A stretch of DNA of 64,000 nucleotides from NCBI GenBank assembly GCA_032718475.1, contig JAUCBJ010009051.1, forward strand, positions 41,181 to 105,180, read 5' to 3'. The notes beneath the pieces are model-generated. The model did not search any database. It saw nothing but the letters and a program-made list of their open reading frames with translations, and was not told where the DNA came from. Shown in pieces: positions 4,297 to 44,576 of this stretch. This DNA is from Nemertoderma westbladi (Eukaryota > Animalia > Xenacoelomorpha). Position 1 is the first letter of the stretch. Every line of letters starts with the position of its first letter. Both the position numbers and the translations under genes were made by a program.

Positions 4297-6278
4297 CCTA
4301 AACAATCAGATTTTTTGCAAAATTTTGAAAATACAATTTTATGTAATCTTAGGTCAGACTGTGAAATATATTTCTTAGGTGATTTTAATATCTGTTACCA
4401 TCACAAAGCATCCCCCATCTGTAAACAGTACCAAAGTATTTTAAATTTGTTTGGTTTAAAACAAATTATTCGAGATTCTACCAGAATTACCAGTAAAACT
4501 TCTACTTTACTAGATCACATCCTTTGTAATAATACCGATATTATTTCTCAATCTGGGGTTTTACCTATAGGTCTAAGCGATCATTTTATAGTTTTTTGCA
4601 CAAGAAAGACACAAAAATCTTTTTTCGGGGATCATAAAACAGTAACAGTTAGGTCTATGAAAAATTACAGCAAGGAACGCTTTTTAAGTTTGTTAGTTAA
4701 TTCTGACTGGGAACCCTGTTTTAAGGCCGCTTTGCGTACACTGTTTTTAAAGATATATTTTTAAAGGCACTTAATACTGTAGCACCAATTAAAGAAATTA
4801 GTCTTAAACAACGCACTGAGCCCTGGATGACCTCGGGAATTCTTAGTAATATCAGAGAAAGAGATAACTATTTGTATAAATTTAGGAAATACCGTGTTTT
4901 AGCTGATTATAATAATTACTGCAAATATAGAAACCTTGTCCAACGGGAAATAAAAAAAGCTAAATCTGAATATTTGTACAACAAAATAAGTGAGAATAAA
5001 GATAATCCTAAAAGTCTATGGTCTACCCTAAAATCTTTAGGTTATAAAAACCTCAAATCTAAATCGAATATTGTTCTGCAAGATAACGGTGAGCTGATTC
5101 ATGATCATACTCTAGTTAGTAATTTATTTAATAATTATTTTACTAATGTTGCCTCTAATTTAGTTAAGAAATTACCGTTATCAAGTAATAAATATAGTAT
5201 AGGGTCCGAAACTCTAAAAAATTTTTATTTAGAAAAGTTACAAAATTCAGAAAAGTTATTTTTAAAACCCGTTTCTGAGGATTTCGTTTTTAAAAATCTA
5301 CTTAGCCTATCAGCCTCAAAAAGTACCGGTCTAGATCTAATACCTGCCCGTTTTCTTAAGGATGGTGCTGAAGTACTTAAAGTGCCTATTACTTTTATTA
5401 TTAATTACTCTATCGTAGATAATGTAGTACCAGACGAACTGAAATTAGCTAAGGTTGTTCCTCTGTATAAAAAGAATAGTAAAGTAGAACCCTGTAATTA
5501 CAGACCTGTTAGTATCTTAAGTATTGTATCTAAAATTCTAGAACGTTCTGTTTTTCTACAGCTGGAGGCACATCTTAGTAGGCTAAATCTGATCTATGAA
5601 CTTCAGTCCGGTTTTCGTAAATCATATTCTACAGACACCTGCCTTATTAACTTAACTGATACAATTAGATGTAATAACGCAAAGGGTTTATATACCGGTA
5701 TGGTAATGTTGGACCTACAAAAGGCTTTCGATACTGTAGATCACGAAATTCTGCTTGGTAAGTTAGGCCTGATGGGTGTAGGTTCTATAGACTGGTTCAA
5801 GTCCTACCTGTCAGACAGAGGTCAAACTGTAGTCATTAGCAAATCGCTGTCTACTGTACAAGAGATTACCTGTGGTGTACCGCAAGGTAGTATATTAGGT
5901 CCTCTGCTTTTTGTATGCTATGTAAATGATATGATAAGTAGTATAGATCCCGATTTTAAACTCATTTTATATGCCGACGACAGTGCTCTTATTTTCTCTC
6001 ATAAAGATCCTATCCATATTTCCCAAAAGTTAAGTGCAGTTCTAGAATCCTGTAATGAGTGGTTGGTTGATAATAAGCTATCCATTCACTACGGTAAAAC
6101 TGAAAGTATTTTGTTTGGTTCCAAAAGAAAGTTAAAGAAGGTAACTAAGTTTGAAGTCACTAGTAATGGACATAAGATTGAAAATAAAAAGGAAGTTAAA
6201 TATTTAGGCGCCACATTGGATAACTGCTTATCAGGAGAAAGTACAGTGAAAAATATTTTCTCGAAAGTTAATCTATCT
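4297..6278 (+). mobile_element. Non-LTR retrotransposon fragment (CR1/L2-group-like APE+RT), truncated at both ends and frameshifted
   Basis: ORF 4315..4764 has APE motifs GDFN, LDHI and SDH. ORF 4827..6293 has RT motifs [27 protein letters not shown] and YADD. The ORF runs directly into satellite, with no 3' UTR or tail. Confidence 0.93.
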
Positions 6279-9200: not shown

Positions 9201-12200
9201 AGGGAAGTCAGAACCCAGGTACAACAGAGGGAAGTCAGAACCCAGGTACAACAGAGGGAAGTCAGAACCCAGGTATAACAGAGGGAAGTCAGAACCCAGG
9301 TACAACAGAGGGAAGTCAGAAGCCAGGTATAACAGAGGGAAGTCAGGTACAACAGAGGGAAGTCAGAACCCAGGTACAACAGAGGGAAGTCAGAACCCAG
9401 GTATAACAGAGGGAAGTCAGAACCCAGGTATAACAGAGGGAAGTCAGGTACAACAGAGGGAAGTCAGAACCCAGGTACAACAGAGGGAAGTCAGAACCCA
9501 GGTATAACAGAGGGAAGTCACAACCCAGGTACAACAGAGGGAAGTCAGAACCCAGGTATAACAGAGGGAAGTCAGGTACAACATAGGGCAGTCAGAACCC
9601 AGGTATAACAGAGGGAAGTCAGAACCCAGGTATAACAGAGGGAAGTCAGAACCCAGGTACAACAGAGGGAAGTCAGAACCGAGGTATAACCGAGGGAAGT
9701 CAGAACCCAGGTATAACAGAGGGAAGTCAGAACCCAGGTATAACAGAGGGAAGTCAGAACCCAGAAACAACAGAAGGAAGTCAGAACCCAGGTACAACTG
9801 AGGGAAGTCAGGTACAACATAGGGCAGTCAGAACCCAGGTGTAACAGAGGGAAGTCAGAACCCAGGTACGACAGAGGGAAGTCAGAACCCAGGTATAACA
9901 GAGGGAAGTCAGAACCCAGGTACAACATAGGGCAGTCAGAACCCAGGTGTAACAGAGGGAAGTCAGAACCCAGGTACGACAGAGGGAAGTCAGAACCCAG
10001 GTACAACAGAGGGAAGTCAGAACCCAGGTACAACAGAGGGAAGTCAGAACCCAGGTACAACAGAGGGAAGTCAGAACCCAGGTATAACAGAGGGAAGTCA
10101 GAACCCAGGTACAACATAGGGCAGTCAGAACCCAGGTGTAACAGAGGGAAGTCAGAACCCAGGTATAACAGAGGGAAGTTAGAACCCAGGTATAACAGAG
10201 GGAAGTCAGAACCCAGGTATAACAGAGGGAAGTCAGAACCCAGGTACAACATAGGGCAGTCAGAACCCAGGTGTAACAGAGGGAAGTCAGAACCCAGGTA
10301 TAACAGAGGGAAGTTAGAACCCAGGTATAACAGAGGGAAGTCAGAACCCAGGTATAACAGAGGGAAGTCAGAACCCAGGTACAACATAGGGCAGTCAGAA
10401 CCCAGGTGTAACAGAGGGAAGTCAGAACCCAGGTACGACAGAGGGAAGTCAGAACCCAGGTACAACAGAGGGAAGTCAGAACCCAGGTACAACAGAGGGA
10501 AGTCAGAACCCAGGTACAACAGAGGGAAGTCAGGTACAACAGAGGGAAGTCAGAACCCAGGTATAACAGAAGGAAGTCAGAACCCAGGTACAACAGAGGG
10601 AAGTCAGAACCCAGGTATAACAGATGAAAGTCAGAACCCAGGTACAACAGAGGGAAGTCAGAACCCAGGTATAACAGAGGGAAGTCAGAACCCAGGTACA
10701 ACAGAGGGAAGTCAGAAGCCAGGAATAACAGAGGGAAGTCAGAACCCAGGTACAACAGAGGGAAGTCAGAACCCAGGTACAACAGAGGGAAGTCAGAACC
10801 CAGGTATAACAGAGGGAAGTCAGAACCCAGGTACAACAGAGGGAAGTCAGAAGCCAGGTATAACAGAGGGAAGTCAGGTACAACAGAGGGAAGTCAGAAC
10901 CCAGGTACAACAGAGGGAAGTCAGAACCCAGGTATAACAGAGGGAAGTCAGAACCCAGGTATAACAGAGGGAAGTCAGGTACAACAGAGGGAAGTCAGAA
11001 CCCAGGTACAACAGAGGGAAGTCAGAACCCAGGTATAACAGAGGGAAGTCAGAACCCAGGTACAACAGAGGGAAGTCAGAACCCAGGTATAACAGAGGGA
11101 AGTCAGGTACAACATAGGGCAGTCAGAACCCAGGTATAACAGAGGGAAGTCAGAACCCAGGTATAACAGAGGGAAGTCAGAACCCAGGTACAACAGAGGG
11201 AAGTCAGAACCGAGGTATAACCGAGGGAAGTCAGAACCCAGGTATAACAGAGGGAAGTCAGAACCCAGGTATAACAGAGGGAAGTCAGAACCCAGGTACA
11301 ACAGAGGGAAGTCAGAACCCAGGTGTAACAGAGGGAAGTCAGAAGCCAGGTACAACAGAGGGCAGTTATAACTCAGGCACAACAGAGGGAAGTTAGAACC
11401 CAGGTACAACAGAGGGAAGTCAGAACCCAGGTGTAACAGAGGGAAGTCAGAACCCAGGTACAACAGAGGGAAGTCAGAACCCAGGTACAACAGAGGGAAG
11501 TCAGAACCCAGGTGTAACAGAGGGAAGTCAGAACCCAGGTACAACAGAGGGAAGTCAGAACCCAGGTACAACAGAGGGAAGTCAGGTACAACATAGGGCA
11601 GTCAGAACCCAGGTGTAACAGAGGGAAGTCAGAACCCAGGTACAACAGAGGGAAGTCAGAACCCAGGTACAACAGAGGGAAGTCAGAACCCAGGTATAAC
11701 AGAGGGAAGTCAGAACTCAGGTACAACTGAGGGAAGTCAGGTACAACATAGGGCAGTCAGAACCCAGGTGTAACAGAGGGAAGTCAGAACCCAGGTATAA
11801 CAGAGGGAAGTCAGGTACAACATAGGGCAGTCAGAACCCAGGTGTAACAGAGGGAAGTCAGAACCCAGGTACAACAGAGGGAAGTCAGAACCCAGGTACA
11901 ACAGAGGGAAGTCAGAACCCAGGTATAACAGAGGGAAGTCAGAACTCAGGTACAACTGAGGGAAGTCAGGTACAACATAGGGCAGTCAGAACCCAGGTGT
12001 AACAGAGGGAAGTCAGAACCCAGGTATAACAGAGGGAAGTCAGGTACAACATAGGGCAGTCAGAACCCAGGTGTAACAGAGGGAAGTCAGAACCCAGGTA
12101 CAACAGAGGGAAGTCAGAACCCAGGTACAACAGAGGGAAGTCAGAACCCAGGTATAACAGAGGGAAGTCAGAACTCAGGTACAACTGAGGGAAGTCAGGT

Positions 12201-12666
12201 ACAACATAGGGCAGTCAGAACCCAGGTGTAACAGAGGGAAGTCAGAACCCAGGTATAACAGAGGGAAGTCAGGTACAACATAGGGCAGTCAGAACCCAGG
12301 TGTAACAGAGGGAAGTCAGAACTCAGGTACAACTGAGGGAAGTCAGGTACAACATAAGGCAGTCAGAACCCAGGTGTAACAGAGGGAAGTCAGAACCCAG
12401 GTATAACAGAGGGAAGTCAGGTACAACATAGGGCAGTCAGAACCCAGGTGTAACAGAGGGAAGTCAGAACACAGGTATAACAGAGGGAAGTCAGAACCCA
12501 GGTATAACAGAGGGAAGTCAGAACCCAGGTACAACAGAGGGAAGTCAGAACACAGGTATAACAGAGGGAAGTCAGAACCCAGGTACAACAGAGGGAAGTC
12601 AGAACCCAGGTATAACAGAGGGAAGTCAGAACCCAGGTGTAAAAGAGGGAAGTCAGGTACAACATA
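6279..12666. repeat. 27-bp satellite, right block
   Basis: Same unit resumes after the LINE. Higher-order blocks of ~229 bp are visible at 11.7-12.2 kb (identical 72-aa pseudo-ORFs at 11737 and 11966). Confidence 0.98.
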
Positions 12667-13007: not shown

Positions 13008-13791
13008 TTAATAAAAGATACGGATAGAGTTTCTTGCATTGTTAGAGACCCCGGCCTTATTTCTGATTTAATAAAAGATACGGATAGAGTTTCTTGCATT
13101 GTTAGAGACCCCGGCCTTATTTCTGATTTAATAAAAGATACGGATAGAGTTTCTTGCATTGTTAGAGACCCCGGCCTTATTTCTGATTTAATAAAAGATA
13201 CGGATAGAGTTTCTTGCATTGTTAGAGACCCCGGCCTTATTTCTGATTTAATAAAAGATACGGATAGAGTTTCTTGCATTGTTAGAGACCCCGGCCTTAT
13301 TTCTGATTTAATAAAAGATACGGTTAGAGTTTCTTGCATTGTTAGAGACCCCGGCCTTATTTCTGATTTAATAAAAGATACGGATAGAGTTTCTTGCATT
13401 GTTAGAGACCCCGGCCTTATTTCTGATTTAATAAAAGATACGGATAGAGTTTCTTGCATTGTTAGAGACCCCGGCCTTATTTCTGATTTAATAAAAGATA
13501 CGGTTAGAGTTTCTTGCATTGTTAGAGACCCCGGCCTTATTTCTGATTTAATAAAAGATACGGATAGAGTTTCTTGCATTGTTAGAGACCCCGGCCTTAT
13601 TTCTGATTTAATAAAAGATACGGATAGAGTTTCTTGCATTGTTAGAGACCCCGGCCTTATTTCTGATTTAATAAAAGATACGGATAGAGTTTCTTGCATT
13701 GTTAGAGACCCCGGCCTTATTTCTGATTTAATAAAAGATACGGATAGAGTTTCTTGCATTGTTAGAGACCCCGGCCTTATTTCTGATTTAA
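13008..13791. repeat. 60-bp minisatellite, 13 near-perfect copies bounded by TTAA
   Basis: Identical 60-nt lines from 13021 to 13790. The only variant is A>T in the copies at 13321 and 13501. Confidence 0.98.
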
Positions 13792-16233: not shown

Positions 16234-16452
<219 letters not shown>

Positions 16453-16586: not shown

Positions 16587-17745
16587 TTAACCCTATTACC
16601 ACTGGGGGGGGGGGGGGGGGGGGCGAATCGGCCCCTTCCTAGTTTTTAGTTGCTGTAACTATGCAACCACATTACGTACCGGCCCAATTTTTTGTGAGAA
16701 TTAGCCAAATTTAATGCCGCATCTTTTGCAAAAAACGCCGTTGCAATTGGATTTCTACTTTTCGATGTGGGTGCCACCACAAAATTTGGTCTACAGCACC
16801 AAATTTTTTGAAATTTTCGAATTTTACAAAGTCATTCGTGATTTAGTAATTATTTATGTTTGGGCTATTTTTATTTATTTTTATTGGTTTGGATCACTCT
16901 AATGCTCTATACAAGTACGTAAGTGTAGTGGTTCGCCATTTTTGGTGCACCAAAATTAGGGCGTGGCACTTCAAATTTTGAAAAATACGAGATTCGGAAA
17001 ATTCACTAAAGTTTTGATTTCAAATTAATTTTATAGGTTTTCTGGAGCGCTGAATCGATTGAAAGTATTATAGAAGCATCAAATCCTTTGTGTACGTAAT
17101 TTTCGGTGCACCAAAATTAGGGCGTGGCACTTCAAATTTTCAAAATTACTTTATTCGGAAAAAACACTATAAAGTTTTGATTTCAAAAAATGGCTAACTT
17201 CTAAGTCTTCAGGCTTCTATATTACTTTCAATCGATTCAGCGGTCTGGAAAACCTATATAAATTCGTTAAAATTTAAATTTGGGTTTATTTTCCGAATCT
17301 CGTATTTTTCAAAATTTGAAGTGCCACGCCCTAATTTTGGTGCACCAAAAATGGCGAACCACTCAGTCTTCAGGCTTCTATATTACTTTCAATCGATTCA
17401 GCGGCCCAGAAAACCCATAAAGATGCGTTGAAATAAAAAAATTAGGGGCATTTTCTGAATATCTAATTTTTCAAAATTTGAAGTGCCACGCCCACTTCTT
17501 AGGTGCACGAAAAATAGCATCCACTTTTTTGGAAGTGGAATATAATCACATTCGATTCAGCGTCTTGAAAAACCTACTAAATCTAGCCAACACTGCCACA
17601 CTATTAGTTTTTAGAAAACGAAAAATTTTGTAATTTTGTCCTGGGACTACTTTTATTTTTCATCAAAATTATGAGTCCCTGCTTATGAAATATTAATTTT
17701 TTAAGGTTTGGTAGTGTTCATCTATAATTACCATGGAAGTTAGCA
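16587..17745. mobile_element. Non-autonomous DNA-transposon-like (MITE/foldback) sequence with internal direct and inverted repeats
   Basis: Starts TTAACCCT followed by a poly-G run (piggyBac-type end). A module containing GGTGCACCAAAATTAGGGCGTGGCACTTCAAATTT occurs twice forward (~16940, ~17100) and twice inverted (~17315, ~17475). No matching right TIR was found. Confidence 0.55.
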
Positions 17746-17754
17746 CCTAGCAGT

Positions 17755-20700
17755 TTGCAGGACCACTATTGTCTGTGTCTTAAACAACTAGCATCATTAA
17801 TACACAGATTACAGAAGATGGGCATTTTACAAAGATATCATGACGTCATAACGGATCATCTTTCCAAAGGCTATATCGAACCAGTAGATCATAGGGAACC
17901 AATAAGTAAGGATCAAGTAGCACATTACATTCCACATCATGGGGTGTTGAGAGAAACTCGATTAAGCACAAAATTAAGAGTTGTATTTAATGCATCAGCT
18001 AGAACATTTCCTACCGACCTATCATTGAATGATTGTTTAGAATCTGGCTCGCATTTATTTCCAAATTTGTGTCATTCATTGCTACACTTCAGGCTTCACA
18101 GCATAGGAATCACTGCCGATATTGAACAAGCCTTCCTACGCTGCCAGGTAAATGAAAATGATCAAAACTGTTTACGTTTTTTGTGGATTAAAAGCTGCTC
18201 AGGCATTGTTATTGAAGAAGCAAACATACAGGCATATCGATACACAAGGGCTCTTTTTGGGCTCACTTGTTCACCTCATATTTTGGGAGGGATTGTAAAG
18301 CACCATTTGGACATAGAATCAGAAAGAACGGATCTACAACAGAGTGAAAGGGATGCTATTGAGAAGTTGCGTGAGATTCATGTGGACGATTTATGTTCAG
18401 GAGCCAATTCGGTAGAAGAAGGTAGATTGTTGCAAACAACATGCAAATCTATTTTAGGACGGGCGGGATTTAAAATTAGACGGTGGACCACAAATAGTTG
18501 TGAGTTACAAAGAATGTTTAATACAGTTGAAGAAAGGGCAAGCAACTGTAATAATCGCACAGCAGAAAGTATAATTGAGGAAGATCAATCATTTGCAAAA
18601 ACGAATCTCAGTTTATCACCACCTCAAACGAATACTGTAAGACGCGTGCTTGGTCAATGTTGGGATTTGTCAACAGATACACTTGGCTATGACGTTTTGC
18701 CAGTATATAGCTTTATTGCAACTCTCCCTTTAACAAAAAAAGTCATTCTTCAACTTTCAGCAAGGTTGTACGACCCTCTTGGTTTACTTTCACCATTTAC
18801 GGCTCAATTTAAGGTCATGTTTCAAGAACTTTGTAAGACTAAAGTAAGTTTAGAGTGGAATAGTCCATTACCAGATCATATGGTTAAGGTATTCAAGAAA
18901 TGGTTAGAAGATATACCTCATATAAATAATATAACTGTGCCACGATATCTATTTGACACTACAAGAGACATTGCTACGTTTGAAATACACGGATTCTCAG
19001 ACGCTAGCAAATATATTTATGCAGGTGTGGCATATATTCGCACAACTTACACAGATAACACATCAAGTGTGAAACTATTAGCATCGAAAGCAAAGGTTAA
19101 CCCAGTACCAAAAAAGGGAAACTCTTTGGGTACACCACGACTCGAACTCTTAGGAGCACTCATTATGATAAGATTAATTACATTTGTCAAACAAGGTCTA
19201 AAATTACCATGCAAAGTTTACTTGTGGTCAGATGCAGTAGATGTAATTTACTGGATAAAAGCGACTAGTTCAAACTGCAAACAGTGGGTTCAATCCAGGG
19301 TTACGGAGATACGTTCATTAACTCAACAATTGAAAGGCCAGTGGCGGTTTTGTCCAGGAATACAAAATCCGGCCGACTTACCCACAAGAGGTATGACAGT
19401 AGAACAACTCATAAAGGCAACTACTTGGTTCAATGGCCCAAAGTTCTTAAGCGCAGAAGAGGAAACTTGGCCGAACAAATTAGTTATAGATCCAATAGAG
19501 GTATCCCAAGATTGTCTAAAGGAATTCAAATCATCCATTGTAGCTGTTACGACCATTAAATCACCCGATGAAGTTATTAGCAATTGTTTCCCATACTCCA
19601 ATTATAGCAATCATACTGTAATTATACGAAAGCTTGCGTGGGTGCTCAGGTTTGTGAGCAACATTCGAGCTAGCATACACAAACATCCGCTTTCCCTAAG
19701 TGTAGTTCCTTCGGCAGAAGAAATGACTCAAGCGGAAATTACACTACTTCGAATGATACAATTAGAACATTATAAACCAGAATTAGAATACTTGCAACAA
19801 CCGAAACGTGGTCGATGTCCAAACATTATTAAGCAATTAAACTTATTTATTGACCACCAAGGTGTATTACGCTCCAAAGGTAGAGCACAGACCCCATACT
19901 TAACATGGCAGGCTCAAAATCCAATACTACTCCCACCGAAAGATCATTTCACTAAGCTAGTAATTTTAAATGCTCATCATAAAGTTATGCATTCACGTGT
20001 AAGAGACACGCTGGTACAAATACGGGAAAGATATTGGATCCCCCGAGCGCGTCAAGTCATTAAGAATGTTTTACGAAACTGTGTAACCTGTAAAAGAACA
20101 CAAGGCAGACCTTATACAAAACAGGAAACAAGTCCTTTGCCCATTGAACGCATGACTATCGACACAAGTCCCTTTACTAATGTCGGGATAGATTTTGCAG
20201 GACCAGTGATGGCAGTTAGATCTCTTTCCGATCCGATCGGTTCAACATTTAAGGTTTATATATGTCTGTTCACTTGTGTCGTAGTAAGAGCAGTGCACTT
20301 GGAACTCGTGACCAGCTTAAGTGTTGCAGCATTTATCAGTGCATTCCGACGATTTATAGCAAGACGTGGAGTTCCAGCATTAATTTTTAGTGACAATGCT
20401 TCTACATTCAAACGATCAGCAGCAGATATCAAACTGTATAACAAATTTCTTGACAGTGACATAGTACGCAAGGAGTTTGGAGAACTCTTAACAAAATGGG
20501 TATTTAATGTAGAACGCTACCCGGCGGCATATGGCTTTATAGAGCGTTTGGTCGGTGTGACCAAAGGAGTTCTTCGCAAGACGTTAGGGAGAGCAGTTTT
20601 AACTGAAGAGGAAATTCGTACTGTACTTACATCATGTGAGGCAGTTGTTAATAGCAGACCACTAACCTTTATTTATAGCGACAGCAAAGAAAATTACCAG

Positions 20701-21291
20701 ATATTGACACCCAGCCATTTCTTGGTAGGAAAAAGACTTTGTGCACTTCCATCCCCTACCGTAAAATCAATTAATCTAGATTTGTCTCGAACGAATCTTA
20801 TAAATCGACTTAAATATCAAGAAAGAGCGTCCAATTTATATTGGAAATTATTTCGTGAAGAATACGTCGCAGAACTTCGGCAACACCATCGTTCCCAAAA
20901 TCACAATAACAGGAACACAATCATCCCTAAGGTTGGAGATATGTGTTTACTTCTTGATGAAAAACTTCCAAGATGTCTCTGGAAGTTGTGTATGGTTAAC
21001 AAGTTGATAGTAAGTCGTGATGGAGTTATTCGCGCAATAACAGTAAATGTTGCTGAAAGAGGTCGGGAAGCAAGACTTCTTACTCGTTCCATACGTTATG
21101 TTATTCTATTGGAAATAACAGCGGACAAACCAACTGACACGACTATTAAACCAGATAAAGATAATCTCAAGCCAGTTCTTCCAGTAGAAAATAAGATAAC
21201 AAACGATGAGACAGCGATCATAACTGACAATTCTCGTCTTTCACGCTTGGCTAAGAGAAAAATAAAACCAGGATTTTACAATGCAAAATAA
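17755..21291 (+). CDS. BEL/Pao LTR retrotransposon pol (RT, RNase H, integrase), 5'-truncated
   Basis: Motifs YIPHHGV, LRVVFNAS, ADIEQAF, HVDD, HGFSDAS, PRLEL, NPADLPTRG, an HHCC zinc finger, DFAGP, SDNA and NSRPL in BEL/Pao domain order. No gag or protease; the TTG start is an artefact. Confidence 0.95.
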   Translation: MQDHYCLCLKQLASLIHRLQKMGILQRYHDVITDHLSKGYIEPVDHREPISKDQVAHYIPHHGVLRETRLSTKLRVVFNASARTFPTDLSLNDCLESGSHLFPNLCHSLLHFRLHSIGITADIEQAFLRCQVNENDQNCLRFLWIKSCSGIVIEEANIQAYRYTRALFGLTCSPHILGGIVKHHLDIESERTDLQQSERDAIEKLREIHVDDLCSGANSVEEGRLLQTTCKSILGRAGFKIRRWTTNSCELQRMFNTVEERASNCNNRTAESIIEEDQSFAKTNLSLSPPQTNTVRRVLGQCWDLSTDTLGYDVLPVYSFIATLPLTKKVILQLSARLYDPLGLLSPFTAQFKVMFQELCKTKVSLEWNSPLPDHMVKVFKKWLEDIPHINNITVPRYLFDTTRDIATFEIHGFSDASKYIYAGVAYIRTTYTDNTSSVKLLASKAKVNPVPKKGNSLGTPRLELLGALIMIRLITFVKQGLKLPCKVYLWSDAVDVIYWIKATSSNCKQWVQSRVTEIRSLTQQLKGQWRFCPGIQNPADLPTRGMTVEQLIKATTWFNGPKFLSAEEETWPNKLVIDPIEVSQDCLKEFKSSIVAVTTIKSPDEVISNCFPYSNYSNHTVIIRKLAWVLRFVSNIRASIHKHPLSLSVVPSAEEMTQAEITLLRMIQLEHYKPELEYLQQPKRGRCPNIIKQLNLFIDHQGVLRSKGRAQTPYLTWQAQNPILLPPKDHFTKLVILNAHHKVMHSRVRDTLVQIRERYWIPRARQVIKNVLRNCVTCKRTQGRPYTKQETSPLPIERMTIDTSPFTNVGIDFAGPVMAVRSLSDPIGSTFKVYICLFTCVVVRAVHLELVTSLSVAAFISAFRRFIARRGVPALIFSDNASTFKRSAADIKLYNKFLDSDIVRKEFGELLTKWVFNVERYPAAYGFIERLVGVTKGVLRKTLGRAVLTEEEIRTVLTSCEAVVNSRPLTFIYSDSKENYQILTPSHFLVGKRLCALPSPTVKSINLDLSRTNLINRLKYQERASNLYWKLFREEYVAELRQHHRSQNHNNRNTIIPKVGDMCLLLDEKLPRCLWKLCMVNKLIVSRDGVIRAITVNVAERGREARLLTRSIRYVILLEITADKPTDTTIKPDKDNLKPVLPVENKITNDETAIITDNSRLSRLAKRKIKPGFYNAK

Positions 21292-29691: not shown

Positions 29692-29802
29692 CTTTAGCAA
29701 CTCGTGTAAATAAAATCGAATGTCAAAGTCTGAAAGTGTCTGATAAAGTTGCTTGAAATCGTTGTTATTTACGTTTTCGAAAATTAACGCCGGTGTCCTC
29801 GA
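29692..29802 (-). CDS. CSNK2A1: Casein kinase II alpha, internal exon ([37 protein letters not shown])
   Basis: 111 nt, acceptor CCTTTTAG, donor GTAAGT. Continues in phase 0 from ...VKDPV and matches the CK2-alpha hinge region S106-K142. Confidence 0.96.
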
Positions 29803-29855
29803 CTAAAAGGATATTAAATAATTAAAAAACTAAAAATATGAAGTTATAAATAAAT

Positions 29856-29919
29856 TTAAAGATCCAGTGGTGAGTAGACCTAATGTTATCATTATGTCTA
29901 CTCACCGCTGGATCTTTAA
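29856..29919. repeat. Inverted repeat (30-bp arms, 4-nt loop, 2 mismatches) capping the 51/56-bp array
   Basis: TTAAAGATCCAGTGGTGAGTAGACCTAATG-TTAT-CATTATGTCTACTCACCGCTGGATCTTTAA. Confidence 0.92.
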
Positions 29920-32900
29920 CAACAGCCTGTAACTGTATAACATTAGGTCTCCTCTACTCACCGCTGGATCTTTAACAACAGCCTGTAACTGTATAACATT
30001 AGGTCTCCTCTACTCACCGCTGGATCTTTAACAACAGCCTGTAACTGTATAACATTAGGTCTACTCACCAGTGGATCTTTAACAACAGCCTGTAACTGTA
30101 TAACATTAGGTCTCCTCTACTCACCACTGGATCTTTAACAACAGCCTGTAACTGTATAACATTAGGTCTACTCACCACTGGATCTTTAACAACAGCCTGT
30201 AACTGTATAACATTAGGTCTCCTCTACTCACCACTGGATCTTTAACAACAGCCTGTAACTGTATAACATTAGGTCTCCTCTACTCACCGCTGGATCTTTA
30301 ACAACAGCCTGTAACTATATAACATTAGGTCTACTCACCAGTGGATCTTTAACAACAGCCTGTAACTGTATAACATTAGGTATCCTCTACTCACCACTGG
30401 ATCTTTAACAACAGCCTGTAACTGTATAACATTAGGTCTACTCACCACTGGATCTTTAACAACAGCCTGTAACTGTATAACATTAGGTCTACTCACCACT
30501 GGATCTTGAACAACAGCCTGTAACTGTATAACATTAGGTCTACTCACCACTGGATCTTTAACAACAGCCTGTAACTGTATAACATTAGGTCTGCTCACCA
30601 CTGGATCTTTAACAACAGCCTGTAACTGTATAACATTAGGTCTACTCACCACTGGATCTTTAACAACAGCCTGTAACTGTATACCATTAGGTCTACTCAC
30701 CACTGGATCTTTAACAACAGCCTGTAACTGTATAACATTAGGTATCCTCTACTCACCACTGGATCTTTAACAACAGCCTGTAACTGTATAACATTAGGTC
30801 TAGTCTACTCACCACTGGATCTTTAACAACAGCCTGTAACTGTATAACATTAGGTCTCCTCTACTCACCACTGGATCTTTAACAACAGCCTGTAACTGTA
30901 TAACATTAGGTCTCCTCTACTCACCACTGGATCTTTAACAACAGCCTGTAACTGTATAACATTAGGTCTCCTCTACTCACCACTGGATCTTTAACAACAG
31001 CCCGTAACTGTATAACATTAGGTCTAGTCTACTCACCACTGGATCTTTAACAACAGCCTGTAACTGTATAACATTAGGTCTAGTCTACTCACCACTGGAT
31101 CTTTAACAACAGCCTGTAACTGTATAACATTAGGTCTCCTCTACTCACCACTGGATCTTTAACAACAGCCTGTAACTGTATAACATTAGGTATACGCTAC
31201 TCACCACTGGATCTTTAACAACAGCCTGTAACTGTATAACATTAGGTCTACTCACCACTGGATCTTTAACAACAGCCTGTAACTGTATACCATTAGGTCT
31301 ACTCACCACTGGATCTTTAACAACAGCCTGTAACTGTATAACATTAGGTCTCCTCTACTCACCAGTGGATCTTTAACAACAGCCTGTAATGGTATAACAT
31401 TAGGTCTAGTCTACTCACCACTGGATCTTTAACAACAGCCTGTAACTGTATAACATTAGGTCTAGTCTACTCACCACTGGATCTTTAACAACAGCCTGTA
31501 ACTGTATAACATTAGGTCTCCTCTACTCACCACTGAATCTTTAACAACAGCCTGTAACTGTATAACATTAGGTCTCCTCTACTCACCACTGGATCTTTAA
31601 CTACAGCCTGTAACTGTATAACATTAGGTCTCCTCTACTCACCACTGGATCTTTAACTACAGCCTGTAACTGTATAACATTAGGTCTCCTCTACTCCCCA
31701 CTGGATCTTTAACAACAGCCTGTAACTGTATAACATTAGGTCTACTCACCACTGGATCTCCAACAACAGCCTGTAACTGTATAACAATAGGTATACTCAC
31801 CACTGGATCTTTAACAACAGCCTGTAACTGTATAACAATAGGTCTACTCACCACTGGATCTTTAACAACAGCCTGTAACTGTATAACATTAGGTCTCCTC
31901 TACTCCCCACTGGATCTTTAACAACAGCCTGTAACTGTATAACATTAGGTCTACTCACCACTGGATCTCCAACAACAGCCTGTAACTGTATAACAATAGG
32001 TATACTCACCACTGGATCTTTAACAACAGCCTGTAACTGTATAACATTAGGTCTACTCACCACTGGATCTTTAACAACAGCCTGTAACTGTATAACATTA
32101 GGTCTCCTCTACTCACCACTGGATCTTTAACAACAGCCTGTAACTGTATAACATTAGGTCTCCTCTACTCACCACTGGATCTTTAACAACAGCCTGTAAC
32201 TGTATACCATTAGGTCTACTCTACTCACCACTGGATCTTTAACAACAGCCTGTAACTGTATAACATTAGGTCTCCTCTACTCACCACTGGATCTTTAACA
32301 ACAGCCTGTAACTGTATAACATTAGGTTACTCACCACTGGATCTTTAACAACAGCCTGTAACTGTATAACATTAGGTCTCCTCTACTCACCACTGGATCT
32401 TTAACAACAGCCTGTAACTGTATAACATTAGGTCTACTCACCACTGGATCTTTAACAACAGCCTGTAACTGTATAACATTAGGTCTACTCACCACTGGAT
32501 CTTTAACAACAGCCTGTAACTGTATAACATTAGGTCTCCTCTACTCACCACTGGATCTTTAACAACAGCCTGTAACTGTATAACATTAGGTCTCCTCTAC
32601 TCACCACTGGATCTTTAACAACAGCCTGTAACTGTATAACATTAGGTCTCCTCTACTCACCACTGGATCTTTAACAACAGCCTGTAACTGTATAACATTA
32701 GGTCTACTCACCACTGGATCTTTAACAACAGCCTGTAACTGTATAACATTAGGTCTCCTCTACTCACCACTGGATCTTTAACAACAGCCTGTAACTGTAT
32801 AACATTAGGTCTACTCACCACTGGATCTTTAACAACAGCCTGTAACTGTATAACATTAGGTCTACTCACCACTGGATCTTTAACAACAGCCTGTAACTGT

Positions 32901-33761
32901 ATAACATTAGGTCTCCTCTACTCACCACTGGATCTTTAACAACAGCCTGTAACTGTATAACATTAGGTCTACTCACCACTGGATCTTTAACAACAGCCTG
33001 TAACTGTATAACATTAGGTCTACTCACCACTGGATCTTTAACAACAGCCTGTAACTGTATAACATTAGGTCTACTCACCACTGGATCTTTAACAACAGCC
33101 TGTAACTGTATAACATTAGGTATAGTCTACTCACCACTGGATCTTTAACAACAGCCTGTGACTGTATAACATTAGGTCTAGTCTACTCACCACTGGATCT
33201 TTAACAACAGCCTGTGACTGTATAACATTAGGTCTAGTCTACTCCCCACTGGATCTTTAACAACAGCCTGTAACTGTATGACATTAGGTCTCCTCTACTC
33301 ACCACTGGATCTTTAACAACAGCCTGTAACTGTATAACATTAGGTCTACTCACTACTGGATCTTTAACAACAGCCTGTAACTGTATAACATTAGGTCTCC
33401 TCTACTCACCACTGGATCTTTAACAACAGCCTGTAACTGTATAACATTAGGTCTACTCACCACTGGATCTTTAACAACAGCCTGTAACTGTATAACATTA
33501 GGTCTACTCACCACTGGATCTTTAACAACAGCCTGTGACTGTATAACATTAGGTCTAGTCTACTCACCACTGGATCTTTAACAACAGCCTGTGACTGTAT
33601 AACATTAGGTCTAGTCTACTCCCCACTGGATCTTTAACAACAGCCTGTAACTGTATAACATTAGGTCTCCTCTACTCACCACTGGATCTTTAACAACAGC
33701 CTGTAACTGTATAACATTAGGTCTACTCACCACTGGATCTTTAACAACAGCCTGTAACTGT
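29890..33761 (-). repeat. 51/56-bp satellite derived from the CK2-alpha exon 3' end plus donor site, distal block (~70 copies)
   Basis: Minus-strand unit CCTAATGTTATACAGTTACAGGCTGTTGTTAAAGATCCAGTG|GTGAGTAGA(GGAGA or CTAGA), which reads [14 protein letters not shown] followed by the 5' splice site. Confidence 0.97.
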
Positions 33762-36187
33762 CCTGTAACGCCCTCGCGTCAGCAGATGATAGTGGCAATG
33801 GTGGAATTGGTCTATTGATGAATCCAACTGCACATGCAGCATTGGACAAAATAGACCAAATCTCTAACCGCATCATCCGTTGCCACTTCTCATGTTCTGG
33901 AAGACTGGCTAAGAAGTTTCCTAAGGTGGTTCTGATTGTGTGCTACTCTCCAACTAGTGTTGCCCCTGTAGAGGAGGTGGAAAATTTCTACCACAATCTA
34001 CAAGCAGCAACTGATGGAGTGGATCAGCATGCATTCTTAACATTCCTGGGAGACTTTAATGCAAGTCTGCATCAATCACCTACATCGCCCTGGGCCTATA
34101 GCAATAGTGTTAACCGAAATTCTGTCCATCTTCAGGATTTTATCTCTGGAAATGGATTGTTTTCGGCTGGAACCCAGTTCAAGAAGCGAACTGGAAAGCT
34201 ATGGACTCATAGTGGACCCAGTGGTCACAAGTCCCAGATAGACCATATTCTGTTTCGTAGGAAATACAGGAGCTCTATACAAGACTGTAATGCATTTACA
34301 CTTCGACCCTTCTCCAGTGATCACCGCCTTATTGTGGCCAAGGTAAGACTTAGTCTGCGTGCTAGCAGAACAACGAAATCTGCCTTGCCACGGCATGACT
34401 GGTCCTCTCTGTTGGTCCTCTCTGCTTACTGGGCGGAAAAGCCAACCAACCACCAAGGTTAAGGCTGAATCACCAGCCGATCGCCTCAATGGTTGGAAAG
34501 CCCACTTTGAAAAGCTCCTCAATAATGACAGGGTATTGCCTGATAACTTTATAGAAGTAAAGGTGTCTGAGTCTGTACTCCCAGATATTCCCATTGGCGA
34601 TATCTCCTTTGCAGAAGTGAAGGCTGCTGCAAAGAGCATTAAGACCAATCGTGCCAGTGGAGTAGATGGTGTTCCCCCTGAGGTCTTTAAAATACCTGAG
34701 TGTTTAAAGCTCATCTATCCCATCATAGTAGACATGTACCGTACAACAAGAGTCCCACAAGAAATGAAAACAAATAAGTTGGTGCCAGTTCCCAAGAAGG
34801 GCAACCTAACACTCTATGGTTCTTTTCGGGGAATCTCATTGATCTCGATTGCTGCAAAGCTATACAATAGGATTCTATTAAATCGCATCAGGGATCCCAT
34901 TGAGAGACTGCTCCGTGGAAATCAGAATGGGTTCCGTAAAGGTCGTGGGACCATGGAGCCCATTTTGGCACTTAGAAGGATAATTGAAGAATTATCAAAA
35001 AAGAAAGACAGGCATCTGGCTGTTATCTTTGTTGACTTCTTCAAGGCCTTTGATTCAGTCTCTCGCTCACGTATGTTCAGCATACTTTCATTATATGGGA
35101 TTCCTGATGAAATTATTGCAGCAATCAGATCAGTATACGATGGTTCGACAACATTTGTGTCTACTGTTGACGGTGACACAGAACCATTTGAAGTGTTATG
35201 GGGCGTCCTCCAAGGAGACACACTTGCACCATTCTTGTTCATTATTGTGGTTGACTATGTTCTACGCATGTCCTTAGATCATCATAATGATGATGGGGTG
35301 ATGATAACTCCACCTACTGGCTCCAGAAGTCGAGGAAATCCTGCCAAGTACCTAACTGATCTAGACTTTGCTGATGACTTAGGAGTACTCTCAGAATCAT
35401 TAGAGGGAGCCCAGCGGCTCCTCAGCTCATTAGAACATGCTGCTTCTAGTGTTGGTCTTTTTATTAACTCCAGAAAGACCAAAATTCTGACAGTTAACTT
35501 TGAAAGTCCTCAGCACGTCTCTGATCGGATGAGCATAAGCTCAAAGGATGGTATGCTTGAGCATGTGGACGACTTCTGTTACCTGGGATCATGGATCCGG
35601 AAGTCAGGTGAGGACCTTCGAATACGTAAGGGAAAGGCATGGGCAGCCTTGAATAGGCTTTCCAGGATTTGGAAGTCACCTAGAATTAATCGGAAACTTC
35701 AGGTCCGATTATTCAGAGCAGCAGTAGTTCCAGTACTCCTCTACGGGAGTCCATGCTGGGCTCTAACTGCTGAGGACACCAAATCTCTGGATGGCACATT
35801 CACAAGAATGCTACGCCGGGTACATTGTGTCAAGTACAGTGCACACATCTCCAACCAGACACTATATAACATTGGAGGTGTCTCATTGGTTCCCCCAAGC
35901 TTGACACTAGAACAAAATCGCCTCCGCTTTGCAGGACATTGCTTTCGCCGTGAGGACCAGCCAGTGCATAATCTTGTACTTTGGCAGCCTCATGGAGTGA
36001 ATAAGCATGGTGGACAGCCCATGACTTTCTTGAGACGCATCTTAAAGGACACTGGCCTTAAAGATGCGGATGATCTAGCAAATGTCATGGGTGATAGGGA
36101 GTTGTGGCGGTGCAATTTTGTTGACAAGCCGGCACAGCATTCTTAAAATGCAGCTGCAATGCAGCATGCCGATCCTAGTAGTAGTAG
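33762..36187 (+). mobile_element. RTE-clade non-LTR retrotransposon, 5'-truncated, with an internal deletion/frameshift and a (TAG)n tail
   Basis: APE motifs (CYSPT, GDFNA, QIDHIL, SDH) in 33815..34462. RT motifs (QNGFRKGR, DFFKAFD, GVLQGDTLAP, FADD) in 34359..36146. Very short 3' UTR ending CTAGTAGTAGTAGTA. Confidence 0.93.
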
Positions 36188-36697
36188 TATAACATTAGGT
36201 CTCCTCTACTCACCACTGGATCTTTAACAACAGCCTGTAACTGTATAACATTAGGTCTACTCACCACTGGATCTTTAACAACAGCCTGTAACTGTATAAC
36301 ATTAGGTCTACTCACCACTGGATCTTTAACAACAGCCTGTAACTGTATAACAATAGGTCTCCTCTACTCACCACTGGATCTTTAACAACAGCTTGTAACT
36401 GTATAACAATAGGTCTACTCACCACTGGATCTTTAACAACAGCCTGTAACTGTATAACATTAGGTCTAGTCTACTCACCACTGGATCTTTAACAACAGCC
36501 TGTGACTGTATAACATTAGGTCTAGTCTACTCACCACTGGATCTTTAACAACAGCCTGTAACTGTATAACATTAGGTCTCCTCTACTCACCACTGGATCT
36601 TTAACAACAGCCTGTAACTGTATAACATTAGGTCTACTCACCACTGGATCTTTAACAACAGCTTGTAACTGTATAACATTAGGTCTCCTCTACTCAC
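36188..36697 (-). repeat. 51/56-bp exon+donor satellite, exon-proximal block (~9-10 copies)
   Basis: Same unit, contiguous with the real exon, whose last 42 nt form the terminal unit. Confidence 0.97.
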
Positions 36698-36799
36698 CAC
36701 TGGATCTTTAACAACAGCTTGTAACTGTATAACATTAGGTCCTCCACGTAAGTTCTCAAGAATTTTTATTTCACGTTTAATCTTCTTTTTATTTACTGG
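36698..36799 (-). CDS. CSNK2A1: Casein kinase II alpha, internal exon ([34 protein letters not shown])
   Basis: Manual translation of the minus strand: 102 nt, acceptor TTTGTTTTTAG, donor GTGAGT. Matches the CK2-alpha basic cluster/helix C region (human P72-V105). Not in the ORF track. The symbol denotes the CK2-alpha family; paralogue identity is not established. Confidence 0.96.
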
Positions 36800-36970
36800 C
36801 TAAAAACAAAAAATAGAAAAAACATGCATTATGGGTTGATAATAATTATACTTGTGCGTATAAATAAGATGATGGGTAAAGGTTAAATAAATAAATTGAA
36901 ACTGAAACAACTAACGGTACGGTACATTATGTTTATTATAAGTAACAGTAAGTCCGTTAACCGAAAAGGT

Positions 36971-37496
36971 TTAACCATATCTACCCCCGGGCCTGGGAAT
37001 TTCACTGAAATTTGGTAACAATATATATCTATGGCATATTTTAACAAATTCTTGAAAAAAAAAGCAAAATTCTTTCGAAGAGCCTCAAATATATATGAAA
37101 ATAGTGGTTTTGTGCAAAGCAAAAATATAATTGCGAATAATGTGACATAATATATGTACCTGATTTTCAATTCTTACGTGTATATTTGCGGTTGCGAATT
37201 CAATGGTAATGAAATTGAGTTGATACAAGTAATGCATCTATCATTTTTAGTGCGGGTACCAAAAGTGGATGCATCACTAAATTTTCAAAATTTGTATTTT
37301 TTTAAGCGGACACCAAAAGTGGGTGCAGCACGAAATTTTCAAAATTATTTGTTTCAAAATATTAATTTTAAGTAAAATATAATATAGGAATTATTAGAGA
37401 AAAAAAAAGGGGGGGGGGGGGGGGGGTACTGACGCATCTCCGATGAAGAATATAATTTCGGGCATAATAAAATCACTTATTCTAAACAGGGTTGAT
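36971..37496. other. Possible MITE remnant
   Basis: Starts TTAACC. Internal direct repeat ACCAAAAGTGGRTGCA..AAATTTTCAAAATT (~37258, ~37312) and a poly-G run. Ends AGGGTTGA, merging into the 40-bp array. Confidence 0.3.
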
Positions 37497-41465: not shown

Positions 41466-44400
41466 TTTAAGTTTTAGTTTAAGTTTAAGTTTATTGTTAT
41501 TTATAGGAAAATGTTATAATTAGAACCATCACCAAAGCACAGTTTAGTTGTAATGGAATAAAAAGAAAATGTGTATGCAGTGTGCGAGGCGGTGGGTTGG
41601 TAAGGGTTGCAGCAATAGCCAGGCTAGTCGAGGCTGCCAACCGACCAAGGGTAAATGTACTGTATATGTAACTAAGTATTATATATTTGAAAAAAGATAA
41701 AATAAGAACTGTTATAAACCTTTAATAATTGTTGATCAGGATCACAAGGAAATATAATAATTTAATTAACCATTTTACAATACACTGTAGTGAAGAAACA
41801 GTCCAGTCGCAGTGTATGTGAGAAGGAAATATAATAAGATAGAGCCAGACATATAGGGAGATATTGTGTAATGTATTATTATGACGTTACGTCATGTGTT
41901 CAAATAGGTATGTTTTAAATTGACGTTTAAATGAAAATTTAGATTTGCTAATAATTAGACTAGAGGGGAGACTGTTCCACAATACTGGCCCAGTGACTGA
42001 TAATCCTTGGTGTGCTACATTGAGACGGGTTAACGGTACTACGAATTTGCCTAAAGTAGATGAACGGGTGTTATATAAATGAATATCAGACAATTTAGTA
42101 AAAAAATTTGAAAGAGGGTGATTATTAGAAGATTTTGATATATCGTACATTAACTGGCCTAATTGTAATTCAAATATAGATTCGATTGGCAAAACATTTA
42201 GTGATTTGTAAAGTGGCACAGAGTGAGCCCGGTAGTCACTAAATGTTATGCAACGCAAGATTTTATTAACTTTAATTCTTAGTGGACGTGTTATTGATTT
42301 GCAGGCAGTACCCCAAGCAAGAATTCCATAAGTGATGTAAGGATTAATTAATGTATAATACAGCGTACGTAAAATTTGGCTTGGGAAAAAGTGTCTTAAT
42401 TTATAAAAAAGTCCGGAGGATCTAGATATTTTTTTAAGGATGTAATTTATATGCGTTTTCCAGCTCAAATTGTCATCGATAAAGATACCTAAGTACTTAG
42501 TGCTATTTACCTTAGTAATTTCATTGGCTTTAATTTTAACTTTCGGTAGTCCAAGACAGTTTTTGTTACTAAAAATAGAGTATTCTGTTTTACTAAGATT
42601 AAGTGATAATGAGTTGTCTATAAGCCAGTCCGAAATTTTTTCCAGTTCAGTGTTTGTGTTGTTAATCAATAAATTTAAGTCTGAATTGAAGCCCAGTAAC
42701 GTCGTATCGTCGGCAAATAAAGTTGTCAAAAATTTGGATGCGTCCGGTAAGTCGTTCACATATAAAAGAAACAGCAATGGTGAAAGGACTGAACCCTGGG
42801 GCGTTCCGCAGGTTACCGGAAGAGTGGGTGAGATTACGCCATTTAAGGATACTGATTGTGTACGGTCTGTTAGAAAACTCCTAAGTAAAGTCTGGGGGGT
42901 GCCTCGAATTCCGTAAGATTCTAATTTTTTAAATAAGGTAGAGTGGTTCAGCGTATCAAACGCTTTTTTTAAATCTAGATAAATTGCGCAGATAGATTCT
43001 TTTGAGTCAAGGTGAAATCTAATTTTTTCTGTAACCGTTAGAATAGCCGAAGCCGTAGAAATCCTCTTTCGAAAACCGAATTGTGATGCAGTCAAAATAC
43101 AGAAACGATCTAAATAAGATTGAAGCTGTGAGTATATAACCTGTTCTAGAATTTTTGTAAAAACTGGCAATAATGATATTGGCCTATAGTTATTAGAATC
43201 TAGTGGATCACCCCCCTTAAAACATGGGATTATTTTAGATTGTTTAAGAGAAACTGGATAATGACCTGTTGTGATACATAGGTTAAATAAATATGCTAGA
43301 TGAGGTGCAATGTGTTCAGCAGCAATTTTTAATAATTTACTGGGAAAGTTGTCATTAGTAGCGCTGTTTTCATTTATTTGTAAAAGTAGGTAGTGAATTT
43401 CAGCTACAGAAGTTTCAATAAGAGTAAATGAATTCGAGTGTCGATGGTTAATGTGGCGGGTAGGGCATCGGTTAGATCGGGGTATTGTACTGGCAAGTTT
43501 TGGTCCAATAGTTGAAAAATGTTCGTTGAAAATAGATGCTATTTTATGGGGATCAGACGTTATTTTTGCCCCTACTTCTGTTCTGAAAGCAATTTTGGTA
43601 GGGCTTAGGGATTTCTTATTTTTGTGTAATACAGAGTTAATTACAGACCACGTCTTGCGCATATTTCCTTTGTTTTTTAAAAATTCTTGATTATAGAATG
43701 ATTTTTCAGCGGCTCTGATTACAGTCGTTAAATTATTACGATATGTTTTATAGGCTTTTTGGGTTTCAGAACACGGTGATTTAATATATTTTTCATATAA
43801 TTTATTTTTTTTAGAAATTGATTTAATTAGCAAAGGAGTTAGCCATGGTTTGCGTGCAATTTTTCTTTTTGTAATTATTTTTTTAGGTAAGTGTTTTTGG
43901 CATAATTGATCAAAAGAATTGTAAAAAGTGTCGAATTTTTTATCTGTCGGTATATTATGGGATCGGTAAGCTGCGAGAGGTGGTAATGAAAGGTCGAGCA
44001 AAAAACTATTTAAGTTAAATTTGCTATAATCATAACACATTTTAGTATTGGGTTGTTTGAAAAAAGCAGAATAATTATGAAATAACGCAAATGTTCCAAG
44101 GTGGTCTGTTGTGCCAATTTCTGATAAAAAAAAACGCCGGCAGTAGTAAAATCATTCGTAATATTAGTAATAATATGGTCAAGCGTTGAATTAGCACCGT
44201 GTGCAATTCGAGTGGGTTGTTTTATTAATTGGGAAAATCCGTATGATGAAAGTATCTGTAAGTATCGTGCACTTTCTGATGTCATTTTGTTTAAGTTAAC
44301 ATTGAAGTCACCAGTGAGGACGATATCTATATTTTTATCAGATACTTTCGCCAATGCGGGTTCTAGAATATTAATAAAATTATTGTAATTGACAGACGGT

Positions 44401-44576
44401 GGTCTGTATATTACACCTAACACTAAGGACTTATTGTTGGATTTTTTAATTTGCATCCATTTATTATGAATTCCCGACACAGTCAAGTCGTCTCGTTCCG
44501 TAAAGGTTAGCGTATCCTTAATGTAAATTCCCACACCCCAACCGGAACCTGAGGAACGTCCCTCTGGTCTGTCTCT
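41466..44576 (-). mobile_element. CR1/L2-group (Crack/Daphne-like, tentative) LINE, 5'-truncated, with intact 3' UTR and (TTAAAC)n tail
   Basis: APE motifs (YRPP, GDFN, LDHI) in 44010..44534. RT motifs (YRPIS, QFGFR, DLKKAFD, GTPQGSVLSP, FADD, HLYNTR) in 41887..44040. AATAAA at 41495-41490 followed by TTAAAC repeats. GGTCAG is present at both junctions. Confidence 0.94.

What the first reader, a model, noticed from the sequence alone, without database searches (positions are those of the whole stretch)
29803..29919. Antisense copy of the exon/donor unit forms a hairpin ~55 nt upstream of the next acceptor
Seen: the exon+donor array ends in one inverted partial unit (29856-29885) that forms a 30-bp stem with the last forward unit and covers that unit's GTGAGT. 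Only 53 nt of unique AT-rich intron lie between it and the exon at 29802. Inference: in pre-mRNA the arm could mask the acceptor-proximal decoy donor, or pair with any upstream unit (including the true exon end) and loop out the array, like docking/selector pairing. It may also simply be the template-switch scar of array formation.
Basis: partly seen in the sequence, partly recalled or inferred. Interest (0 to 1): 0.7.

Follow-up and report, generated by a model that had tools for sequence, protein, structure and literature searches.

The report
Backwards unit ends splice-donor repeat array
An intron of a CK2-alpha kinase gene holds a long repeat of an exon end with its splice signal, closed by one short backwards copy that is predicted to fold into a hairpin, but the one transcript seen uses the first signal as in known genes, so the hairpin is likely the scar of a DNA copying slip and not a splicing switch.

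Summary
A minus-strand CK2-alpha intron (36697-29803) holds 82 units of exon end plus donor. It ends in the window's only inverted unit, 29856-29889 (34 nt), which forms a 28/30-bp stem over the last donor (z -6.8), 53 nt before the acceptor. The splicing role is weakly supported at best. One arm can cover 1 of 78 GT donors, and two more lie within 250 nt of the acceptor. The arm fits 20 other units perfectly; once pairings over 150 nt are allowed it leaves the last unit, and loop-out to the exon end weighs 0.2% or less. A spliced contig of run X1 joins the first donor to the acceptor. That is the behaviour published for F7-type donor minisatellites and amphioxus 'mirages', where no masking element was found. 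The arm spans the repeat junction, so it is no older than the array: most likely a template-switch scar. No DNA reads or second haplotype were available, so an artefact is not excluded. This scan has noted donor arrays and inverted exon copies on other DNA, but no note held both.

The parts
36698..36799 (-). CK2-alpha exon, 102 nt (34 codons); its last 44 nt or so plus the donor are the source of the repeat
   Evidence: Translation, Pkinase match E 0.018, covered letter for letter by the spliced X1 contig; gene named from the exon at 16452-16258 (E 1e-40)
36692..36697 (-). True donor GTGAGT (unit 1), the one used in the X1 contig
36187..36741 (-). First block of the donor minisatellite, units 1-10 (51 and 56 nt)
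33762..36186 (+). LINE-type retrotransposon piece (endonuclease and reverse transcriptase frames) inserted into the array, antisense to the gene
29890..33761 (-). Second block of the donor minisatellite, units 11-82
29890..29919 (-). Last forward unit (82), 5' side of the predicted stem; donor at 29905-29900; differs from the arm at 29907 and 29895
29856..29889 (+). Inverted 34-nt copy of a 51-nt-type unit, spanning exon end, donor and the repeat junction; 29889-29886 is the hairpin loop
29803..29855 (-). 53 nt of unique A/T-rich intron with the acceptor AG; its predicted pairing hardly changes whether or not the arm is free
29692..29802 (-). Next CK2-alpha exon, 111 nt (37 codons)

Best explanation
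The 34-nt arm is an exact backwards copy of the array's consensus unit, likely left by a template switch or fold-back repair at the end of the array, and the correct donor is likely chosen by exon definition (first donor after the acceptor) with no need for the arm. Shown: the arm, its identity to 20 of 82 units, its span over the repeat junction, the return to normal orientation after 34 nt, and one spliced contig using donor 1. Inferred: DNA synthesis left its template at the array's 3' end, copied 34 nt of a unit backwards and returned. Two routes fit. (S1) The 16 nt at 29905-29890 are the original intron start; their near-match to the exon 51 nt earlier seeded the slippage, and the arm was inserted there, which would make the ancestral intron about 69 nt. 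(S2) A switch at the unit's self-complementary TATA gave a perfect palindrome that later lost 2 nt and took a point change. In RNA the stem is predicted to form briefly and then may swap to a better-fitting unit upstream; either way it ties up one decoy.
For: The arm contains the junction between donor and exon copy, so it cannot predate the duplication. Both stem mismatches lie in the forward unit and neither is compensated; the 29907 letter is shared with units 75, 80, 81, i.e. spread by repeat turnover regardless of pairing. Unit 82 is the weakest of the 82 partners near the arm in the model (-41.5 against -52.3 kcal/mol for unit 77). 78 of 82 units keep GT and 66 of 82 match the true donor from -3 to +8, with no excess of donor-breaking changes (variant letters 1.1% per site around the donor, 1.3% in the rest). 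The X1 contig joins 36698 to 29802 with a single copy of the exon end. The true donor is predicted less open (0.32) than the mean of its 69-unit class (0.53), so predicted structure does not track use. Both flanking introns are long (over 27 kb upstream, since the previous exon's end is not in the window; 6895 nt downstream), the setting in which upstream donors win (PMC9225289). F7: only the most upstream of identical donors is used, unchanged by deleting or adding units (PMC1557585). Single template switches make such stems (PMC5453318, PMC8794818); fold-back insertions of mostly 5-34 bp are documented in yeast (PMC11724301).
Against: No outgroup or second haplotype, so the ancestral state and switch points are reconstructed, not observed; microhomology is only about 2 nt at the inner junction. 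The arm sits exactly over the decoy nearest the acceptor, and in a transcript folding as it is made that stem forms first (span 80). The three decoys within 250 nt of the acceptor all carry the -2 variant whose class has the lowest predicted openness (0.31, 4 units, range 0.22-0.44). The splicing evidence is one contig from one run, labelled 'DNA?' by guess, from an individual that may lack the array or the arm; contigs drop rare forms. None of the other arrays in the window has such an end, so terminal inversion is not a routine product here.
Confidence: 0.8

Rival explanations
1. Same origin, but kept by selection: the stem forms as the RNA is made and hides the donor 103 nt from the acceptor, which would otherwise pair with it across a short intron.
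For: At 80-nt span the arm pairs with unit 82 with probability 1.000 and halves its predicted openness (0.22 to 0.11). The stem is -41.5 kcal/mol and could be kinetically trapped. Across short introns the downstream donor is favoured (PMC9225289). Units 80-82 share a variant with lower predicted openness.
Against: Units 81 (159 nt) and 80 (215 nt) stay uncovered within the same range. Opening the inner 5 bp costs only 5.3 kcal/mol and exposes a toehold for better partners; with longer spans the arm moves to units 81, 79, 77. Mismatches are uncompensated. Known arrays splice correctly without such an element.
Confidence: 0.1
2. The arm pairs with a far-upstream unit and loops out the array, bringing the true donor next to the acceptor, like docking/selector pairing.
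For: One arm can pair with any of 82 units; pairing with unit 2 (34/34) would leave donor 1 free and close to the acceptor.
Against: No specificity: 20 perfect partners; modelled weight 0.0018 for unit 2 and below 0.0001 for unit 1, whose pairing would cover the true donor. The arm is made 6.8 kb after the true donor. The units are not shown to be alternative exons, and only one mRNA form was seen.
Confidence: 0.03
3. The inversion is a sequencing, amplification or assembly artefact.
For: No DNA run holds it: X1 has no contig over 29852-29905 and the metagenome scan found nothing; neither blank is proof. Fold-back chimeras are a known artefact of amplified DNA (recalled).
Against: The sequence returns to the right strand after 34 nt and runs into an intact acceptor that the transcript uses; the arm differs from its neighbour at 2 places and matches other units, unlike a plain fold-back read.
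Confidence: 0.07

Closest known systems
Donor-spanning minisatellites: human F7 intron 7 (also IFI6/6-16, CBS, LMNB2, PDGF as cited there; PMC1557585: abstract, introduction, results section 10, discussion read) and amphioxus 'mirages' (PMC3087553: abstract and passages of section 16 read)
   Same: First unit spans the exon-intron boundary; identical donors repeated into the intron; the most upstream donor is used; end units diverge from the homogenised middle.
   Different: 82 units against 5-26 in the human cases cited; split by a LINE piece; closed by an inverted unit, which the passages read do not describe ('inverted' and 'hairpin' occur 0 times in PMC3087553).
Short template-switch mutations, four-point model (PMC5453318: abstract and section 4; PMC8794818: abstract and opening)
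   Same: A short reverse-complement copy of adjacent sequence, then return to the original strand, giving a long stem with a tiny loop in one step.
   Different: Those papers infer events against an ancestral sequence; none is available here. The template is a repeat unit, so the exact source copy cannot be named.
Fold-back templated insertions at DNA breaks in yeast (PMC11724301: abstract and section 15); small inverted triplications (PMC13334657: abstract only)
   Same: Inverted insert of the same size class (mostly 5-34 bp), with 0-5 bp microhomology at the far join.
   Different: The yeast events are primed by a 10-bp inverted microhomology; I found no such primer here.
Dscam-type docking site/selector pairing and donor-masking stems such as MAPT exon 10 or SMN2 exon 7 (features recalled; the latter seen only in search listing)
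   Same: One sequence able to pair with many partners; a stem over a 5' splice site.
   Different: Here the partners are unused decoy donors, pairing has no specificity, there is no conservation or compensation in view, and no alternative product was seen.

Membership tests
F7-type donor minisatellite / mirage | First unit spans the exon-intron boundary | tested here: met
   Unit 1 is the end of exon 36799-36698 plus donor
F7-type donor minisatellite / mirage | Donor repeated unchanged into the intron | tested here: met
   78 of 82 keep GT, 77 of 82 GTGAGT, 66 of 82 identical from -3 to +8
F7-type donor minisatellite / mirage | Most upstream donor used in mRNA | tested here: met
   One contig, one run; minor forms would not show
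F7-type donor minisatellite / mirage | Copy number varies between alleles | not testable with these tools
   No second haplotype or DNA reads
Template-switch mutation (four-point model) | Reverse-complement copy of nearby sequence | tested here: met
   34/34 to 20 of 82 units; 30/34 to the adjacent one
Template-switch mutation (four-point model) | Return to the original strand | tested here: met
   Intron, acceptor and exon resume in gene orientation after 29856
Template-switch mutation (four-point model) | Microhomology at the switch points | tested here: inconclusive
   About 2 nt at the inner join; arm ends fall at or in 2 of the unit's 3 self-complementary 4-mers
Template-switch mutation (four-point model) | Four points map onto an observed ancestral sequence | not testable with these tools
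   No outgroup or whole genome held
Docking site/selector system (features recalled) | One site pairs with several partners, one at a time | tested here: met
   In folding models only
Docking site/selector system (features recalled) | Pairing activates an alternative exon and leaves its splice sites free | tested here: not met
   Pairing covers the partner's donor in every case
Docking site/selector system (features recalled) | Mutually exclusive mRNA forms | tested here: inconclusive
   One form seen, from contigs that drop rare forms
Docking site/selector system (features recalled) | Conserved pairing with compensatory changes | not testable with these tools
   No relatives; within the locus 2 of 2 mismatches are uncompensated
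Known RNA family (e.g. miRNA precursor) | Reaches an Rfam gathering score | tested here: not met
   3 matches, all far below cut-off (26.7 of 160, 23.8 of 48, 18.5 of 42 bits)

The most novel reading that the evidence does not exclude
One copying slip created a self-made antisense guard: the arm silences the decoy donor closest to the acceptor while the RNA is being made, helped by a variant that closes the next two, and this is what let a donor array grow to 82 units inside an essential kinase gene.
Probability: 0.08. Interest if true: 0.65.

Novelty: new member of a known kind. Interest (0 to 1): 0.22.

Why it matters
As read here it is an ordinary repeat-end scar on a large example of a known oddity. 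The locus is still a handy natural test: 78 GT donors over 6.9 kb, three within short-intron range of the acceptor, one covered by a stem. Deleting the arm would show directly whether first-donor choice needs help near the acceptor. If it does, it would be a splicing safeguard born in a single mutation from the very repeat that created the hazard.

Tried and rejected
No whole genome is held, so other arrays of this genome could be checked only inside the window: 0 further inversions in 8 array blocks. Run search: 3 runs listed, 1 holds the stretch (share 0.37), no RNA holder on record. X2 and X3 laid nothing; X1 has no contig over the arm, which proves nothing. A second X1 contig on 29811-29847 with 7 other letters in 37 was dropped as a chance A/T-rich match. 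Exact 23-nt pattern in metagenome contigs: 0. Rfam: nothing at cut-off, miRNA reading rejected. Transposon terminal repeat rejected: the arm is a copy of this gene's own exon end and donor, and the only other long inverted repeat is unrelated (16927-17525). Selection against decoy donors: not seen (4 of 82 lose GT, all by the same change). The 'intact GT' line was off by one place and printed 0; one search gives the right counts, and the donor window is shifted by one base. U1 pairing energies (11-nt U1 end, recalled) do not separate true and last donor (-10.8 against -11.0). Motif search for the next CK2 exon below 15500 found none. Literature for a donor array with an inverted end: one search gave 0 papers, one search gave 5 with 2 of 4 terms and none on this, searches gave the arrays only; subscription papers are not searched and no supplements were read (those of PMC3087553 align mirage units and could show inverted ends).

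Full report
Setting. The window is eukaryotic, probably animal (spliceosomal introns, LINE pieces and a Pao-type element; the animal range of Pao elements is recalled). On the minus strand lie four exons of a casein kinase II alpha gene: 36799-36698, 29802-29692, 16452-16258 and 15638-15519 (the third matches human CK2-alpha at E 1e-40; 3 of 4 match Pkinase). The intron in question runs 36697-29803, 6895 nt. It holds 82 units of 51 or 56 nt, each the last part of the upstream exon plus its donor, split after unit 10 by a 2.4-kb LINE-type piece.

Observation. Confirmed. Arms 29856-29885 and 29890-29919 pair at 28 of 30 places around a 4-nt loop. The fold has z -6.76 as RNA and -14.7 as DNA, with 0 of 200 shuffles as stable in each. 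It ranks first among 16 short-range inverted pairs in the window and is the only reversed stretch in 8 array blocks. The copy is really 34 nt, 29856-29889, since the loop belongs to it. 53 nt of unique intron separate it from the exon.

What the arm is. Read as a unit, it covers exon end, donor and the junction where the next unit begins. That junction exists only because of the duplication, so the arm is no older than the array. It equals 20 of 82 units at 34 of 34 places but its neighbour, unit 82, at only 30. Of the two stem mismatches, the one at 29907 is shared by units 75, 80, 81 and 82, so it spread by repeat turnover; the one at 29895 is private to unit 82. Neither is matched by a change in the arm. 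After 34 nt the sequence returns to gene orientation. This is the product of a switch-and-return in DNA synthesis as modelled in PMC5453318 (section 4 read), which PMC8794818 (abstract and opening) shows can make a stem in one step; yeast breaks give fold-back inserts of mostly 5-34 bp (PMC11724301, abstract and section 15). Two routes fit and cannot be told apart here. In S1 the 16 nt at 29905-29890 are the original intron start: they match the exon 51 nt earlier at 8 of 10 places, which would explain the 51-nt period by slippage and the private letter without a new mutation, and would imply an ancestral intron of about 69 nt. In S2 the switch happened at the unit's TATA and the palindrome later lost 2 nt. 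With about 1.2% variant letters per site in the array, S1 needs fewer extra events, but end units are known to escape homogenisation (PMC3087553), so this is weak.

Which donor is used. Run X1 holds 0.37 of the words. Its 785-nt contig covers exon 29802-29692 without a difference, runs on one side into the exon at 16452, and on the other into a single copy of the exon end followed by unique exon sequence. Laid on 36630-36950 the same contig covers 36698-36801 without a difference and its loose end is the exon at 29802. So donor 1 of 82 is joined to the acceptor. Limits: one run, one study, kind guessed as DNA although the contig is exon-only over three joints; the individual may differ from the one assembled; contigs drop rare forms.

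Can the arm explain that choice? 78 of 82 units keep GT and 66 are identical to the true donor from -3 to +8. One arm binds one unit. Units 82, 81 and 80 lie 103, 159 and 215 nt from the acceptor, all under the 250-nt limit for pairing across an intron (PMC9225289, passages), so two close decoys stay free even when the stem forms. In a simple model over all 82 partners, unit 77 takes 0.51 of the weight, unit 2 takes 0.0018, and units 1 and 82 under 0.0001. A full fold of the last 1108 nt puts the arm on unit 77 at 0.83. With limited span it sits on unit 82 (80 nt, 1.000), 81 (150 nt, 0.875), 79 (250 nt, 0.856) or 77 (400 nt, 1.000), and opening the inner 5 bp costs 5.3 kcal/mol. So masking of the last donor is a short-range, kinetic outcome; in a cell, where proteins limit long-range pairing (recalled), it may well be what forms. 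The 53-nt acceptor region is predicted much the same with the arm free or blocked. Against my reading: the -2 variant carried by units 80-82 has the lowest predicted openness of the six donor classes (0.31 against 0.53). But it is one mutation in 4 units, and the true donor itself scores 0.32.

What is known. In human F7 a 37-bp unit repeats the donor; only the most upstream is used, deleting or adding units changes nothing, and no masking structure was found; IFI6, CBS, LMNB2 and PDGF are similar, the first two with some use of the nearest decoys (PMC1557585: abstract, sections 4, 10, 12). Amphioxus mirages do not disturb splicing (PMC3087553). Between long introns the upstream donor is preferred (PMC9225289 section 6), and this 102-nt exon has long introns on both sides. 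No arm is needed. I found no paper on such an array with an inverted end, within the limits of the library. Earlier notes of this scan list 8 donor arrays in other genomes and several inverted exon or donor copies; none is near this place or like this sequence. They are unchecked notes; one gave me the mirage paper, which I read.

Verdict. A real, lineage-specific inverted unit at the end of a large donor minisatellite. Most likely a template-switch scar (0.80); selected masking of the nearest decoy 0.10; artefact 0.07; loop-out 0.03. It works like a template-switch hairpin and belongs to an F7/mirage-type array; it fails the docking/selector test on the feature that pairing should leave splice sites free. 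Interest 0.22.

Noticed in passing
window 29691-21851, minus strand: The next intron also starts at once with a tandem array (20-nt unit, about 325 + 27 copies) whose unit resembles that exon's end and donor; it has 28 GGTAAAG words, no inverted unit, and the X1 contig splices across it correctly.
   Followed up: partly
window 36641 and the 51-nt units: 51-nt units are 17 codons with no stop in the exon's frame, while donors 2 and 3 would shift the frame (+56, +107 nt); any use of near decoys would likely be degraded.
   Followed up: partly
window 33762-36186, 41466-44576, 4297-6277: Three of the large arrays are each interrupted by a reverse-transcriptase-bearing LINE-type piece; the first ends in a short three-letter tail that matches its insertion site in the unit.
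   Followed up: partly
window 17728-21288 (+): Pao-type retrotransposon frame of 1187 codons (Peptidase_A17, integrase zinc domain, DUF5641) inside the intron before the exon at 16452.
   Followed up: no
window 16927-17525: Long imperfect palindrome (76% over about 600 nt, 89% over 152 nt), likely a miniature inverted-repeat element; similar words recur near 37260-37345.
   Followed up: no
window 37495-64000, 275-12656, 13008-13791: Further intronic arrays of 40, 27 and 60 nt units; about two thirds of the window is tandem repeat inside one CK2-alpha gene, whose previous and later exons were not found in the window.
   Followed up: no
window 29830-29803, minus strand: A second AG lies 27 nt before the acceptor; its use would add nine codons ending in a stop.
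   Followed up: no
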